Assembly (NCBI RefSeq): GCF_037042905.1
Contig: NC_087253.1
Span: 2,108,001 to 2,172,000, forward strand
Length of the DNA stretch: 64,000 nucleotides
Direction of reading: 5' to 3'
From: Lytechinus pictus
Taxonomy: Eukaryota
The position numbers are program-made. Below are positions 29,601 through 35,600 of the stretch, piece by piece (within the stretch, counting starts at the first letter, position 1; each line of letters opens with the position of its first letter).

Positions 29601-32600
29601 TAGGACGTTGCATTTAGCGATTAATTGCTAACCATTGTGTAACCGGGCCCATGTCAACAATTAATGACCTTTTCTTTGAGCTATACTTCCGACAAAAAAG
29701 TAGGTAAATGCCCGGAAACCTCCAAAATGGTTCACTCCACGTTCAGCACCAGTTATAGCCCTTCAATTTGTCAATACGTGTCACAGCATTTGACGATTGT
29801 TCATATCTCGTATAATTGATTGTTTTGGGGTAACATGGTAAGTTATTGCTTATACGTTTGTATCGAAAGTAAATTGTGATCAGTTATTGTAAGTCCCCAA
29901 ATAAATAATGATTCTTGTATAATTGCATATTTTCCATTATTGGCTGCGTGCTTCGAGTGTACTTAATGATTTTTCTTCATATTTTTTAAACGGATTTATA
30001 TACTGAAGTAAAAATAGATTTATCAATTGCTAAATTACAAGTCATAATTGCATTCAATCACACATTGATTTCCTGCTGCGGGTCACTTTAGCTTATTCGC
30101 CTCAGTTACACTGACACGAAAGTGCATTTTTAGCACGGGCTGGTGCTAAAATTATACTTATCGATATCTTTGAAACCACACCAAGTTTGCAACCGATTGC
30201 GACAATTTGTTGAATGCATTTCATTTTAATCAAACCGATTCGAAATAATTACAAAGATTAAAATAATGACGGATGTAATGCGATTTTCATCATGTTTCAA
30301 AAGTGTAACATGACTTAAAACATAAACGACCGAGCAAGTACAACAGAATAGTTTAGTGACTTAATTCAATAAGAGATATGTCGGTGTTAATCTTGAATTA
30401 TACTTGACATTGTCTGCGTGACAGAATTTAGAAACGAAACTTAAAACTGAACGTATAATATTTCTCGTAAACAGGTGGATCAATTGACGAAAGAGCAGAT
30501 TGAAGGTAGGAATCTGATTCCCTTTTTTTATTTACTATTTCATGTGATTCCGTTTTATTTTTCAAGAACCTTGTAAGTTGTAAGCTAATGAAACATTTAA
30601 GAGAACAAATTTATGTTGCAGTTGAATTATTATGACATTTGTATCGGGAAGGGGGTGGGCATAGGCAGTCGATGGCGGAGAACTGGAGGACCCCAGAGGG
30701 GTGTGGCAGGCCTCTTACATACACTTTTTTTTTTTCAAATTCCCCTTCCCCTAACAGATAAAAAAAATATCTCGCGTATTGCCATTATGTTACGTATATA
30801 CAGTGGTGTTCAAAAGTTCGTGAATCCCACCAGAAAATGAATGTGTTCAAGTTCTGCCATGCTTTTAGATATTCAATTGTGAAGTCAGGTGATAAAATAC
30901 ATTCAATAAAGTTTGTTTCTCCAGGCTCGAAGAACATTGTAGTGTCGTTGTTTACATTCAACTGTTCAACAATCAGCCTGAAGAAGTCCATTTTGTGATG
31001 AAGTTCACTAACTTCTTACCACAACTGTACATGTTGGAGCTCTGCAGCAGAATTTCTCTTACTAGGTTTCAACACCAATACAAGCACTAAGCTTGATCAC
31101 TCACTGGTTAGTCTTGTCCCCGGAGGCGCGTAGCCAGGGGGGGGGGGTGGTGGGGGCGGTCGCCCCCCCCAAAACGTCCCCAAAAAGAAAAAAAAAGAAG
31201 GGAAAAAAGAGGGGAGAAAAGGAAAAGGGAAGGGAGGAAAGGGAAGAAAGGTAGCTTTGTGTTTTTTTTTTCTTTAATTTTTTTTTCTCAAAAGAGAAAC
31301 TCCTTCTCTCTTGCTCTAAATTTATATATGAATTTTGCTTCCGCGCGGCGCGCGGTTAAATGATAATATTGAAGTTCTCCATTGTTTCCCCCACCCTTTC
31401 TCTAACCCTGTTTTTCCACCTCAGCTATATGTGTTTCTTGCCAGTTAAAGTTCAAATGTATACATTAGGGCATATAATTAGAGTAAGGTTAGGCCGAAGT
31501 ATATGAAGTTATCTTTTTTTTAATTGATTGCGCAACTTCTGGACGGGTCGGCCCTAGGCGGGTAAAATCTTTATATCAATTTCTGCCGTCACCTCCATAA
31601 AGTCAACTTCTCCTGCTTTTCAGCTCATTACTAAACAACCATAATTTGGGGGCAAACAGGTTCCTAATTTGAAAAGAGGAAGGTATAAAATTCGTGTCGT
31701 ATTAGATAATAAAGTACAATATTTATTATCAAATTCTATTAAACTTCATGTCATTTCCCTGCACATTCATCTCCTGTCCTGTTTTGCGCACTCAGTTTGA
31801 AATTTTGAATGACACTTAGGGTTCTTTATAATTCAAAATGAAGCGCTTCAGGATAAGTCAAAGAAATTAGGCATCCTTTTTTATATAATTTCAATGAATC
31901 ACAGAAGTTTCAACTTTTTGCGCACTATTTTCCTTGTAATGAAGTTCAATAATCTTAGAAAATCAATCGAATTAGACCCGATGGGGTATTAGAGATATGA
32001 TGAAACGTCCGCCCTTTGAAACTTCAGAGTTTCATTGCTCTGCGCGGGGAGGAATATCTTCCTCCCGGCATATACACTTCTTCTCCTCTGTTTTGCGAGT
32101 TATGCACTGTCGCTAAATTGTTTGTAATCAAATCTGATCTTTCCAAGGGAAGTATTCAATATATCTTTGAAAATACCCTTTTATCGGGACTCATGGCAGA
32201 AAAAAATTGAAAAAACGCTTTAGCTTCCGCGTGAAGCGTGGTTATTATTTTTTAATTTCCTCCATTTTATTCCCTTTTTATGCGTTCGCTCACAATCACT
32301 TTTGAAAACAAGGTTCATGAAAAAAAGGTTAAAAATCACAATATTGTCAACTGAATTGGAGGTGATATAGGTACTAGTGACAAGAGAGACGGCTCCTTTT
32401 CATTTTGATTTATGAAACACCAAAAGCTTCGCGCTTCGCGCGGGAGGGGGAAACTCCCCCTCCCTGCATCCACCCCCTAGGGAGCGCGCTTCGCGCGCTC
32501 TGTAAGTGTTGGCACGCTTCGCGTGCGATTACCGCCGCCTCCAAAATGAAATCCTGGCTACGCGGTTGCGGGGGGGGGGGGGCACTTCCATTGACGAGTG

Positions 32601-35600
32601 GATACCATGCGCGACCATGGGGTCTCGAAAAGCACCCTAAACAGATATTTCCCATATACTGAAAATGCACCCCTTAACAAGTATTGGCGTGGGGGCGTGT
32701 GAAACCATACCCTTAACAATTAAGTATTGGAAACAAAACGATACCCTTAGCAAGTATTCCCTGAAATAAACCCTTAAACAAGTACAGGAATATTTCATTG
32801 TTATGCCACGGGTCCTTCGGTCGTTGGTTTTACCTTAATTTACACATCATTTGGTTTAGTACGACCCCACCTTCCACACCTCGTGTAAATCGGACTCTAA
32901 ACACGTAGTGTTGGGGCAAAAAGGACATCCGTTATAAAACATTTTAATTTTGTTTTATCATCCCCGCAAATTTGACCCTAAACTCGTAACTTTTCTAGCG
33001 AAATAGATACCCTTTTTTCATTATTTTGGTGTTTTTGACACCCTTATCACGTTACGTACGTAACGTGCCCTATCTTGAAAAAGACATCCCTTTTACGTGT
33101 TTTTTGGTCGCGCATGGTATCCACTCGTCAATGTAAGTGGCCCCCCGGGGTCTTGTCAGGACTTGGAGGCTACACTAAAACAAGTACGACCTTCTTCCAA
33201 TAATCATGATATTCAATGTTCTCTATTAACAGAATACAGAGAGGCATTCGCCATCTTTGACAAGAACGGCGACGGTATCATCACAACCAAGGAACTGGGA
33301 GAAGTGATGACGTCATTTGGGGAATTCCCGAATGAAGGGGAGCTGAGAGAAATGGTTAACGAGATCGACGTTGATGGTATCATACAATATTGTATACCAT
33401 GTTTAGTATACTTATTTCCAAATATTCCGTCAAACTCTATACGATGAACATTAATTGTGGGTTCACTTGATAGTTACCAACGTGAGTTATAAAAAGTAAG
33501 CCTCTAATGTTTATAAATTTTCTTTCATCCACTTTGTTTCTATGACCTTTCGGATAAAACAAACTGAAATAAAACGCCCGACAAACCATGTCATGAAACG
33601 CTCCCTTGTTGAATGCCATTATATATCCTACTACCGAGACTATCCTTAAACCAAGAGGCTGAACTTGCTGGCGTAATTCCTCCGTTCAAAATTTTATGGC
33701 AAACCATTTCCATCGCTTTCATTATCGGTTCCATATATCACAGAGTTCGAACAAGCATTCTTGTAATGATTAATGACAATTTGCAATCCAATTCTCTTTT
33801 TTTTTTCGATAAAGGAAACGGTGAGATCGATTTTGCCGACTTTCTTTCCTTGATGGCCCGACCTATCACCGATGTACACACGGAACAAGAAATCAAAGAG
33901 GCTTTTAGAGAATTTGATAAGGACGGTGATGGATTTATAAGGTAAGGTCAATGTCTCATCTGTACACTTCCAACCCATGATTCTTCGTGTCTACCAGCAG
34001 TTGGCTTACTTCCCAAATCGTCTTATACCATGTTTACCGCATGGGCTAAATCACCTTGGTCTACTACCAATGTTAAGATTGAAACATTTGAAAGATTTGA
34101 ACGAAGAGATACATAATTTCGTTATTTTATGTTACTGTTACATTATTTTCAATTTGCCCCTACTGTCTCAGATATGCGACCGTGTCCTGGGCTCTCTTTC
34201 TTATGTCTAATTCAATGTATAAAATGTATCTGTAGGCCTACTGTTAATTTCAACGTTTCCTTTATTGCATTTCGTTCAATAAAGTAACGCAAAACAACCG
34301 TTGATCGTGCTAAATCATGTAAACCTATCCTATAATTTACAATCTGATACATAACTTAAAAAAGGAACCTAAGGTTATTCATTAACATATGCTTGTACAC
34401 TGTCTCTGCATTACGCAAGTGTTACAGATTTCCGTAACGTGATGACGACGGTCGCCGATACCCTGACTGAAGAAGAGCTCGAGGAGATGATTGAGGAGGC
34501 TGACGCTCACGGCCAAGGTCAGATCAACTACGAAGGTAAGACATTCATTGAGATATTTCGATATCTATATTTTAATTAACAGTGAATGTGAGAGTTTCGT
34601 AGCGGTTCCGACTCTCACCTTGTAATCAGAGGGTCGTGTGTTGTAACTCCACAACGACCTAGCCTAAATCCGCACTTTGCCACTTTTCACCCACGTGTTG
34701 GTACCCGTTAGGAAGCGAAAGCCTATATGTGCATAATTATAGTATGCCTACCAACGTGTAATGACCTATCTCGTCTTTTCTGATGGTGAAAATGACGAGT
34801 TTACATAATTAAGTTACAAAAGTAACCTAATTGAATAGCGCCACCTGTAGGAAATGATGTGAAATGCCGTGCAAAATTTGGAATCCAAAATCGACTCATT
34901 GTTGGTAACGAAATTTGGGGGATGAACAAGACTAGTAATCTTGTATAAAGTAAGCAAGAACTCGGAACGCAAGCTAGGAGGGGAGAGTATTCACCATGCA
35001 TGCTTCACCCGCGTCAGTTATTAAGCTACAAAAACAAAATCTTATTTATGATTTCTGCTAAAAATAGACTTCCAGTTTATGTAGTGATCGGCCGATAGAA
35101 TATGTCTAAAAAGTACAGCTCGCGAGCGCTTTATGTTCACATTATAGGTATTATGGTATCAAAGAAATAAAGATCTTGGGGAAAATGCACTTACACTCAC
35201 AAGTATATCAAAAGTAGACAAATAATAATTGCCTTAATTGATCTCAAAATTGTGTATCACCTTTTTGCCCATTTTTCTTTCTTTCTTTTTCATCATCAGA
35301 TTTTGCAAAGACTATCGCAGAAATGTGAGGAGATACACTCGGTTACACATTCATTACATTGGATGGAAATCCCTCGTTAATGATGATCTAAGAATGTTCA
35401 TCTGGATGCGAACTCTCATTATTGACTGCATGTGGTACTTAGCGTACCTTTCTTAAAGGACAAGTCCACCCCGACAAAATATTGATTTCAATAAAAAGAG
35501 AAAAGTTTAACAAGCATAACATTGAAAATTTCATCTAAATCGGATGCAAAACAAGAAAGTTATGACATTTTAAAGTTTCGCTTAATTTCACAAAACAGTT

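What the first reader, a model, noticed from the sequence alone, without database searches (positions are those of the whole stretch)
29835..35328. Calmodulin paralogue with systematic Glu12->Asp in EF-hands 2-4
Seen: loops are [12 protein letters not shown] (canonical), [24 protein letters not shown] and DAHGQGQINYED (also loses positions 3 and 5). The linker has Pro (MARPITDV), and the trimethylated Lys115 context (LGEKL) is replaced by VADTL. Length is exactly 149 aa with no indels. Established: Asp at loop position 12 lowers Ca2+ selectivity in favour of Mg2+ and weakens Ca2+-driven opening. Inference: a functional, retuned sensor, such as a single-site Ca2+/Mg2+ sensor or a constitutive motor light chain, rather than a pseudogene.
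Basis: partly seen in the sequence, partly recalled or inferred. Interest (0 to 1): 0.65.

Follow-up and report, generated by a model that had tools for sequence, protein, structure and literature searches.

The report
Sea urchin calmodulin-like gene, retuned EF-hands
This is a real, intact gene of the sea urchin Lytechinus pictus for a calmodulin-like protein found so far only in sea urchins, with weakened calcium-binding sites; it is an uncharacterised member of a well-known kind of protein.

Summary
Six GT-AG exons on the + strand (29835-35328) add up to 450 nt, which is 149 codons plus a stop. The three large exons are 100% identical to RefSeq XP_063960533.1, "calmodulin-alpha-like [Lytechinus pictus]".

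Orthologues were found in five sea urchin species of three genera, and nowhere else in the searches I could run. They form a 100/100 clade on a long stem and are 58-60% identical to canonical calmodulin.

The "systematic" Glu12-to-Asp pattern holds only for Lytechinus:
- **EF2:** Asp12 is invariant (5 of 5).
- **EF3:** Asp in Lytechinus, Glu in S. purpuratus, Asn in Diadema.
- **EF4:** Asp in Lytechinus and S. purpuratus, Glu in Diadema.
- **EF1:** Glu is kept in all five.

The N lobe is much better conserved than the C lobe. No N-lobe ligand position varies, against 5 of 10 in the C lobe.

A pseudogene is excluded. My best reading is a specialised calmodulin-like subunit: the N lobe is the metal switch, and the C lobe is weakly binding, Mg2+-loaded or metal-free. 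Expression, metal binding and partners are untested. Asp12 is common in other calmodulin-like proteins, so this is a new member of a known kind, of modest interest.

The parts
29712..29834 (+). 5' untranslated part of exon 1 (minimum extent)
   Evidence: The L. variegatus RefSeq model (P0124) reads 41 aa further upstream. 29 of 33 of those residues match the translation of window 29712-29810. In L. pictus that frame is closed by a TGA 15 nt before the ATG. The stretch is therefore leader, and the ATG sits at the 3' end of a longer first exon.
29835..29837 (+). Exon 1 coding part: start codon only, followed by gtaagt
   Evidence: A first exon that encodes only the start codon is reported for abalone calmodulin genes, whose exon/intron structure is said to match the sea squirt's (PMC6171432 passages).
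30475..30505 (+). Exon 2, 31 nt, residues 2-11 plus the first base of codon 12
   Evidence: It is the only one of 44 AG...GT candidates between exon 1 and exon 3 whose translation resembles a calmodulin N-terminus. Translated. It matches residues 2-11 of P0004.
33233..33376 (+). Exon 3, 144 nt, residues 12-60: EF-hand 1 (loop 33259-33294, Glu12) and the first four loop residues of EF-hand 2
   Evidence: Pfam EF-hand_1 at 2.6e-10. 47/47 identical to P0004 residues 13-59.
33815..33941 (+). Exon 4, 127 nt, residues 60-102: rest of the EF-hand 2 loop (Asp12 codon GAC at 33838-33840), the linker with Pro76, and most of the EF-hand 3 loop
   Evidence: Pfam EF-hand_1 at 9.1e-10. 41/41 identical to P0004 residues 61-101.
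34420..34535 (+). Exon 5, 116 nt, residues 102-141: end of the EF-hand 3 loop (Asp12 codon GAT at 34427-34429), VADTL in place of LGEKL, and the EF-hand 4 loop from 34502
   Evidence: 38/38 identical to P0004 residues 103-140. Pfam EF-hand_7 at 2.6e-05, which is below the curated cut-off.
35300..35328 (+). Exon 6 coding part, 29 nt: completes the Asp12 codon of EF-hand 4 (G|AT), then FAKTIAEM and TGA
35490..35495 (+). Candidate polyadenylation signal AATAAA, 162 nt after the stop codon
   Evidence: This is a pattern match only. It lies inside one arm of an inverted repeat.

Best explanation
**Shown.**
- This is an intact six-exon gene of Lytechinus pictus for a 149-aa calmodulin-like protein.
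- It belongs to a paralogue clade seen only in sea urchins, and that clade predates the Diadema/Echinacea split.
- The clade diverged sharply from calmodulin on its stem and has since been kept by purifying selection.
- The N lobe is the strongly conserved part. EF1 is canonical with Glu12, and EF2 has a fixed Asp12.
- The C lobe evolves about 2.5 times faster, and its metal ligands drift between lineages.

**Inferred.**
- The N lobe is the working metal switch. EF1 is Ca2+-specific. The Asp12 site of EF2 is competed by Mg2+ and has lower Ca2+ affinity.
- The C lobe binds Ca2+ weakly, or sits Mg2+-loaded or metal-free.
- The C lobe would then serve mainly as a constitutive anchor on a helical or IQ-type target. 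This resembles the structural lobe of troponin C, or a dedicated calmodulin-like myosin light chain.
- Pro76, invariant in the clade, would break the central helix at the hinge.
For: **Gene and identity.** Searches give the model. Searches match it to RefSeq.

**Clade.** In a tree of 19 named rows over 139 columns, the five sea urchin rows form one clade with 100/100 support. The stem is 0.34 changes per site. The branches inside the clade are 0.19 and 0.083.

**Divergence from calmodulin.** Identity is 87-89 of 149 to four full-length named canonical calmodulin rows and one with an alternative last exon. There are 25 differences from calmodulin that are fixed within the clade: 16 in the N lobe and 9 in the C lobe (a 26th listed there, position 1, is an artefact of my script).

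**Constraint.**
- L. pictus against D. antillarum: N lobe 65/76 identical, C lobe 45/73 (Fisher p = 0.0014).
- Side-chain ligand positions (1, 3, 5, 9, 12) that vary among the five species: 0 of 10 in the N lobe, 5 of 10 in the C lobe (p = 0.033).
- L. pictus against L. variegatus: coding sequence 4/149 differences, translated leader 4/33.

**Target groove.** Positions that align with calmodulin's hydrophobic target-binding residues stay hydrophobic (alignment). Which residues those are is recalled, not computed.

**Literature.**
- Asp at position 12 makes a Mg2+-preferring or lower-affinity site (PMC6107761, PMC5983762, PMC8622359).
- Asn12 sites in centrins are inactive or weak.
- Androcam and CLP are calmodulin-like proteins that act as dedicated myosin light chains (PMC4914028).
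Against: - No expression, metal-binding or partner data exist for this protein in anything I could search.
- If the C lobe were the anchor on a conserved target, it might be expected to be the better conserved lobe. It is the worse conserved one.
- EF3 keeps all ligands except position 12 in every species, so it may still bind Ca2+.
- The centrin review warns that predicted and measured binding often disagree.
- The statistical contrasts rest on five sequences from three genera and on small counts. N-lobe loops against C-lobe loops over all 24 positions gives only p = 0.07.
- Structure prediction could not be run.
Confidence: 0.55

Rival explanations
1. It is a four-site Ca2+ sensor that works like calmodulin but is shifted to higher Ca2+ concentrations. 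On this reading all four loops still bind Ca2+ and open both lobes at physiological peaks. The protein would be a lower-affinity or tissue-specific calmodulin isoform.
For: - Loops 1-3 keep every ligand except position 12.
- Asp12 sites in other proteins do bind Ca2+, for example EF3 of CIB1.
- Sequence-based predictions of EF-hand activity are often wrong.
- Positions aligned with the target-binding residues stay hydrophobic.
Against: - Loop 4 in Lytechinus has His at position 3, Gln at 5 and Asp at 12. In 232 other stored relatives these columns are Asp in 218 and 220 rows, and none has His or Gln.
- Diadema has Asn12 in EF3, a state described as inactive or weak in centrins.
- Ligand positions drift in the C lobe.
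Confidence: 0.22
2. It is a slow Ca2+/Mg2+ buffer rather than a sensor. The Asp12 sites would hold Mg2+ at rest and exchange it slowly for Ca2+, shaping Ca2+ transients without binding targets.
For: Mixed Ca2+/Mg2+ character is expected for Asp12 sites. The protein carries more acidic residues than calmodulin: fixed changes include R38T, K76P, K78T, R127E and K149M.
Against: - Positions aligned with calmodulin's target-binding groove stay hydrophobic.
- The N lobe has 16 fixed, conserved differences from calmodulin. That looks like adaptation to a partner rather than to buffering.
- A buffer needs high abundance, and no abundance data exist.
Confidence: 0.1
3. It is a decaying duplicate (pseudogene), or a gene-prediction artefact.
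For: Three of the four Glu12 residues are lost, and loop 4 loses two more ligands. The E5 acceptor is weak.
Against: - The 149-codon frame is open, with GT-AG introns.
- The same length and frame are kept in species said to have split 250 million years ago.
- The N lobe is 86% identical over that span.
- The coding sequence is less diverged than the leader.
- An unnamed 109-aa record matches S. purpuratus residues 73-140 without a break across the E4/E5 junction. That is what a spliced transcript would give.
Confidence: 0.02

Closest known systems
Canonical calmodulin
   Same: Both are 149 aa and align without gaps over residues 1-145. Both have four EF-hands in two lobes. In both, the first exon encodes only the start codon (PMC6171432). 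All three large exons hit calmodulin first among solved structures.
   Different: Identity is only 58-60%. Asp12 replaces Glu12 in EF2-4, and loop 4 has His3 and Gln5. Pro stands at the column where 204 of 232 relatives have Lys and none has Pro. Thr stands at the Lys115 position. The clade sits on a stem of 0.34 changes per site.
Androcam (Drosophila), CLP/CALML3 and CALML4: calmodulin-like proteins that act as dedicated myosin light chains
   Same: They are lineage-restricted calmodulin paralogues of the same size. Androcam has one lobe with degenerate metal binding (PMC4914028 passages).
   Different: In androcam the N lobe is degenerate and the C lobe binds Ca2+ tightly. Here the polarity is the reverse. 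No myosin or IQ partner is known for the sea urchin protein. No sequence comparison with these proteins was made here.
Plant calmodulin-like proteins (CMLs) and centrins
   Same: Glu-to-Asp at loop position 12 is described as very frequent in plant CMLs (PMC5983762). Asn12 or Asp12 in EF3 is typical of centrins (PMC8622359). Among 232 stored relatives, 42 have Asn and 13 have Asp at this column. Four unnamed centrin-like records have the same Glu/Asp/Asp/Asp pattern.
   Different: The sea urchin clade lies outside the two centrin rows in the tree, and those rows are only 38-39% identical to it. It has no N-terminal extension. Any likeness to plant CMLs is convergent.
Troponin C and the myosin regulatory light chain (functional analogy only)
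   Same: Both show a division of labour between a structural lobe, occupied by Mg2+ or Ca2+ at rest, and a regulatory lobe. An Asp12 Ca2+/Mg2+ site is the one studied in the smooth-muscle regulatory light chain. That work (da Silva 1995) is cited inside PMC6107761, and I did not read it.
   Different: No sequence kinship beyond the EF-hand superfamily was tested. The troponin C comparison is recalled, not computed.

Membership tests
EF-hand superfamily, calmodulin-like four-EF-hand proteins | Four helix-loop-helix EF-hand motifs in two pairs, recognised by Pfam EF-hand models | tested here: met
   Tested exon by exon. E3: EF-hand_1 at 2.6e-10 (39.5 bits, cut-off 25.4). E4: EF-hand_1 at 9.1e-10 (37.8 bits). 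E5: EF-hand_7 at 24.9 bits, below its cut-off of 30, because loops 3 and 4 are cut by introns. The database's precomputed domains for P0004 list the EF-hand families.
Canonical calmodulin | Near-invariant sequence across eukaryotes (named animal, fungal and plant calmodulins in my set are almost identical to each other) | tested here: not met
   87-89 of 149 identical to four full-length canonical rows and one with an alternative last exon. Stem of 0.34 changes per site, against end branches of 0-0.04 for the canonical rows.
Canonical calmodulin | Glu at position 12 of all four loops, with Asp/Asn/Ser at positions 1, 3 and 5 | tested here: not met
   Asp12 in loops 2-4, and His3 and Gln5 in loop 4.
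Canonical calmodulin | Lys115 in the LGEKL context (trimethylation site; this role is recalled) | tested here: not met
   Thr in Lytechinus and S. purpuratus, Gly in Diadema. 158 of 232 relatives have Lys at this column.
Calmodulin gene lineage (origin by gene duplication) | Shared exon-intron plan: the first exon encodes only ATG | tested here: met
   compared with PMC6171432 passages. That exon sizes 31 and 144 nt equal those of vertebrate calmodulin genes is recalled only. Intron 4 (in codon 102) lies inside what is a single exon in abalone and sea squirt. The sea urchin calmodulin gene itself could not be compared.
Myosin light chains / IQ-motif-binding calmodulin-like proteins | Stable binding to an IQ motif of a myosin heavy chain | not testable with these tools
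Centrins | Grouping with centrins in a tree; N-terminal extension | tested here: not met
   The two centrin rows are separated from all calmodulin-like rows by a 100/100 branch. Identity is 38-39%. There is no N-terminal extension.

The most novel reading that the evidence does not exclude
The clade is a sea-urchin invention in which the -Z glutamate has been removed repeatedly and directionally. This happened in EF2 on the stem, in EF4 in Echinacea, and in EF3 independently in Lytechinus and in Diadema. EF1 and an Asp12 EF2 have meanwhile stayed frozen for about 250 million years. On this reading, selection has built an N-lobe-only Ca2+ switch that is primed by Mg2+ and has a broken central helix. 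It would serve one lineage-specific partner, for instance a motor or axonemal component of gametes or cilia, and the fast C lobe would co-evolve with that partner.
Probability: 0.12. Interest if true: 0.55.

Novelty: new member of a known kind. Interest (0 to 1): 0.3.

Why it matters
Calmodulin is almost frozen in evolution, so old, divergent paralogues show which of its properties can be traded away. This clade gives a natural series of states at the key Ca2+ ligand within otherwise near-identical proteins. EF3 position 12 is Glu in S. purpuratus, Asp in Lytechinus and Asn in Diadema. That is a ready-made set for measuring how position 12 tunes Ca2+/Mg2+ selectivity and lobe opening. L. pictus is used for laboratory genetics (recalled), so a knock-out is feasible. 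The practical stakes are modest. Calmodulin-like proteins with Asp12 and dedicated partners are already well documented in plants, flies and mammals.

Tried and rejected
**Searches that added little**
- The spliced model was searched exon by exon only, and the joined step was left out. Full-length comparisons used the public RefSeq protein that the exon-5 search returned.
- The first exon-5 query was 38 aa, under the tool's minimum of 40. The contiguous window stretch 34418-34537 was used instead.
- Search of representatives: 48,594 proteins at E <= 0.001 and 959 at E <= 1e-30. None of the best 150 exceeds 61% identity. Clusters at 50% identity merge this protein with calmodulin, so this says little about orthologues outside sea urchins.
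- Profile search: 2,355 hits at E <= 1e-30 among 5,218 candidates, with 120 listed. Only the three query clusters exceed 62% identity.

**Structure**
- The structure prediction job was interrupted. There is therefore no model and no fold search.

**Literature on this protein**
- The accession XP_793110 and 'Sp-Calm' each gave 0 papers.
- The other four searches listed nothing about this gene.
- PMC2113586 (abstract only) concerns ordinary axonemal calmodulin in sea urchin sperm.

**The window outside the gene**
- The EF-hand pattern scan found no second calmodulin-type gene in the window.
- No Rfam family and no tRNA were found in the window.
- Pfam gave nothing significant for eight of the nine other ORFs tested; the ninth is the RASSF-like neighbour.

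**Considered and rejected**
- Pseudogene.
- Centrin.
- The sea urchin Spec proteins. This one was rejected from recalled low similarity only and was not tested.
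Full report
**What is in the sequence**

The window has no N and a G+C content of 31-43%. On the + strand between 29835 and 35328 there are six exons with GT-AG introns:

| Exon | Coordinates | Length |
|---|---|---|
| E1 | 29835-29837 (ATG only, then gtaagt) | 3 nt |
| E2 | 30475-30505 | 31 nt |
| E3 | 33233-33376 | 144 nt |
| E4 | 33815-33941 | 127 nt |
| E5 | 34420-34535 | 116 nt |
| E6 | 35300-35328 (with TGA) | 29 nt |

The lengths add to 450 nt, which is 149 codons and a stop.

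E2 was found by listing every AG...GT stretch of suitable phase between E1 and E3. Of 44 candidates, one reads like a calmodulin N-terminus.

- Loop 1 is [12 protein letters not shown].
- Loop 2 is [12 protein letters not shown].
- Loop 3 is [12 protein letters not shown].
- Loop 4 is DAHGQGQINYED.
- The linker reads MARPITDV.
- VADTL stands where calmodulin has LGEKL.

Loops 2, 3 and 4 are each cut by an intron. For that reason a six-frame pattern scan found only loops 1 and 3. The same scan found no other EF-hand gene in the window.

The E5 acceptor (cgcaag|T) looks weaker than a ttacag 8 nt downstream, but that second site would break the frame.

**How the model was searched**

- Pfam finds EF-hand domains in each large exon.
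- Each large exon hits calmodulin first, at the colinear position, among solved structures.
- The exon-5 stretch, searched against the large protein collection, returned 2 proteins of 16 candidates. One is a 149-aa RefSeq protein, "calmodulin-alpha-like [Lytechinus pictus]" (XP_063960533.1, kept as P0004), at 100% identity. The other is "calmodulin-alpha [Strongylocentrotus purpuratus]" (XP_793110.3, P0005).
- The three large exon translations are 47/47, 41/41 and 38/38 identical to P0004 residues 13-59, 61-101 and 103-140.

Full-length analyses below use that public record.

**Relatives**

Orthologues were found in five sea urchin species:

| Species | Identity of the 149-aa core to L. pictus | Note |
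|---|---|---|
| L. variegatus | 145/149 | The RefSeq model carries a 41-aa N-terminal extension |
| S. purpuratus | 137/149 | |
| Diadema antillarum | 110/149 | Two accessions on two contigs |
| D. setosum | 107/149 | Last exon mis-annotated |

- The L. variegatus extension is probably an annotation artefact. In L. pictus the same frame is closed by a TGA 15 nt before the ATG.
- An unnamed 109-aa record matches S. purpuratus residues 73-140 at 67/68. It is continuous over the E4/E5 junction and departs exactly at the E5/E6 junction. That is what a partly spliced transcript would give, so it is weak evidence of expression.

Everything else is much more distant:
- Single-sequence search: 245 hits at E <= 1e-20 of 350 candidates. 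No hit outside the sea urchin group exceeds 61% identity over most of the query.
- Profile search: 2,355 hits at E <= 1e-30 of 5,218 candidates, 120 listed. Nothing beyond the three query clusters exceeds 62%.
- Exhaustive search of representatives: best 150 of 959 at E <= 1e-30, with a maximum of 61%.

These limits do not exclude a divergent orthologue in other echinoderm classes. None of 232 other stored relatives has Pro at the linker column.

In a maximum-likelihood tree of 19 named rows over 139 columns, the five sea urchin rows form a clade with 100/100 support. The stem is 0.34 changes per site, the Diadema branch 0.19 and the Echinacea branch 0.083. The position of the clade among calmodulins is unresolved. 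Identity to named canonical calmodulins is 87-89 of 149.

**Is the Glu12-to-Asp pattern systematic?**

It is systematic only in Lytechinus:

| Site | L. pictus | L. variegatus | S. purpuratus | D. antillarum | D. setosum |
|---|---|---|---|---|---|
| EF1 position 12 | Glu | Glu | Glu | Glu | Glu |
| EF2 position 12 | Asp | Asp | Asp | Asp | Asp |
| EF3 position 12 | Asp | Asp | Glu | Asn | Asn |
| EF4 position 12 | Asp | Asp | Asp | Glu | unreadable |
| EF4 positions 3 / 5 | His / Gln | His / Gln | His / Asp | Asn / Glu | Asn / Glu |

With calmodulin as outgroup, the simplest history has four separate losses of the Glu. EF2 lost it on the stem. EF4 lost it in the Lytechinus-Strongylocentrotus group. 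EF3 lost it once in Lytechinus and once in Diadema. This is my inference by parsimony.

**Constraint**

- Between L. pictus and D. antillarum the N lobe (residues 1-76) is 65/76 identical and the C lobe 45/73 (Fisher p = 0.0014).
- Of the ten side-chain ligand positions per lobe, none varies in the N lobe and five vary in the C lobe (p = 0.033).
- Over all 24 loop positions per lobe the contrast is 2 against 8 (p = 0.07).
- C-lobe loops vary as much as the rest of the C lobe (8/24 against 22/49, p = 0.45).
- 25 differences from calmodulin are fixed within the clade, 16 of them in the N lobe. They include E68D and K76P.
- As a crude stand-in for dN/dS: L. pictus and L. variegatus differ at 4 of 149 coding residues but at 4 of 33 residues of the translated leader (p = 0.037).

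A paper abstract dates the split of Diadema from the other sea urchin genera it studied at 250 million years (PMC7299941, search listing only). A frame kept open at the same length over that span, with an 86% identical N lobe, excludes a pseudogene. A real dN/dS could not be computed, because no eukaryotic nucleotide collection was available.

**Mechanism**

Literature passages say the following:
- Glu12 chelates Ca2+ with both oxygens (PMC6414500; PMC5983762).
- Asp at that position marks Mg2+-binding or lower-affinity sites, and changing Asp to Glu makes a site Ca2+-specific (PMC6107761, citing da Silva 1995, which I did not read).
- Asn12 sites in centrins are weak or inactive, an Asp12 site in a green-alga centrin falls outside the physiological range, and prediction often disagrees with measurement (PMC8622359).

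Combined with the conservation pattern, I infer the following. The N lobe is the selected metal switch, with a Ca2+-specific EF1 paired to a Mg2+-competed EF2. The C lobe has relaxed metal binding and acts mainly as a structural or anchoring lobe. Pro76, invariant in the clade and absent from 232 relatives, should interrupt the central helix.

Positions aligned with calmodulin's hydrophobic target-binding residues remain hydrophobic (alignment; the list of those residues is recalled). A target-binding role is therefore more likely than pure buffering.

A weakness of this reading is that an anchoring lobe might be expected to be the better conserved one. It is not, unless its partner also evolves fast.

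**Comparison with the known**

By sequence and gene plan this is a derivative of calmodulin. A first exon with only the start codon is also reported for abalone calmodulin genes, whose exon/intron structure is said to match the sea squirt's (PMC6171432). It fails the defining features of calmodulin proper on identity, on Glu12 in all loops and on Lys115.

- **Functional precedents:** androcam and CLP are calmodulin-like proteins that serve as dedicated myosin light chains (PMC4914028). In androcam the degenerate lobe is the N lobe, the reverse of the case here.
- **How common Asp12 is:** it is described as very frequent in plant calmodulin-like proteins. Four unnamed centrin-like records among the 232 show the same Glu/Asp/Asp/Asp pattern.

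The pattern is thus not new in kind. The gene is annotated automatically, and I found no paper on it.

**What stayed open**

- Structure prediction failed and was then unavailable.
- Supplementary tables of sea urchin transcriptome and proteome papers, which may hold expression values for the S. purpuratus orthologue, were closed.

**Verdict**

This is a new, uncharacterised member of a known kind, of modest interest.

Noticed in passing
window 26920-28578, minus strand: A single 552-aa open frame with a RASSF8-10-type Ras-association domain (Pfam 1.2e-08). Its likely start, near 28563, lies head-to-head with the calmodulin-like gene about 1.27 kb away, so the two may share a bidirectional promoter region.
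   Followed up: partly
window 29643-29819 and P0124 (L. variegatus): The L. variegatus RefSeq model begins 41 aa upstream of the conserved Met. In L. pictus the same frame ends in a TGA 15 nt before the ATG. The extension is probably an annotation artefact.
   Followed up: yes
window 35453-35588 and 35903-36038: An inverted repeat with 136-nt arms, 82% complementary, starts 125 nt after the stop codon and overlaps the first AATAAA. It looks like a foldback or MITE-like insertion in or beyond the 3' UTR.
   Followed up: no
window 32576-32617 and 33105-33146 (intron 2): A 42-nt inverted pair, 95% complementary, lies inside the 2.7-kb second intron. A purine-rich tandem array lies at 31198-31250.
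   Followed up: no
window 28709-29032, 15181-15597, 50310-50876 (+ strand): Open frames that resemble, from memory, the C-terminal tails of non-LTR retrotransposon proteins. Pfam gave no significant hit.
   Followed up: partly
P0006 (Diadema antillarum) and P0125 (D. setosum): The D. antillarum protein is carried by two accessions on two contigs, which suggests either a recent duplicate or two haplotype copies. The D. setosum model reads through the last donor site and lacks the true last exon.
   Followed up: no
window 33942-34419 (intron 4): This intron, in codon 102, lies inside what is a single exon in abalone and sea squirt calmodulin genes (PMC6171432). From memory, it is also not at the position of the extra intron of human calmodulin genes. 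It may be a lineage-specific gain.
   Followed up: partly
whole window: No Rfam family reached its gathering score, and no tRNA was found.
   Followed up: yes
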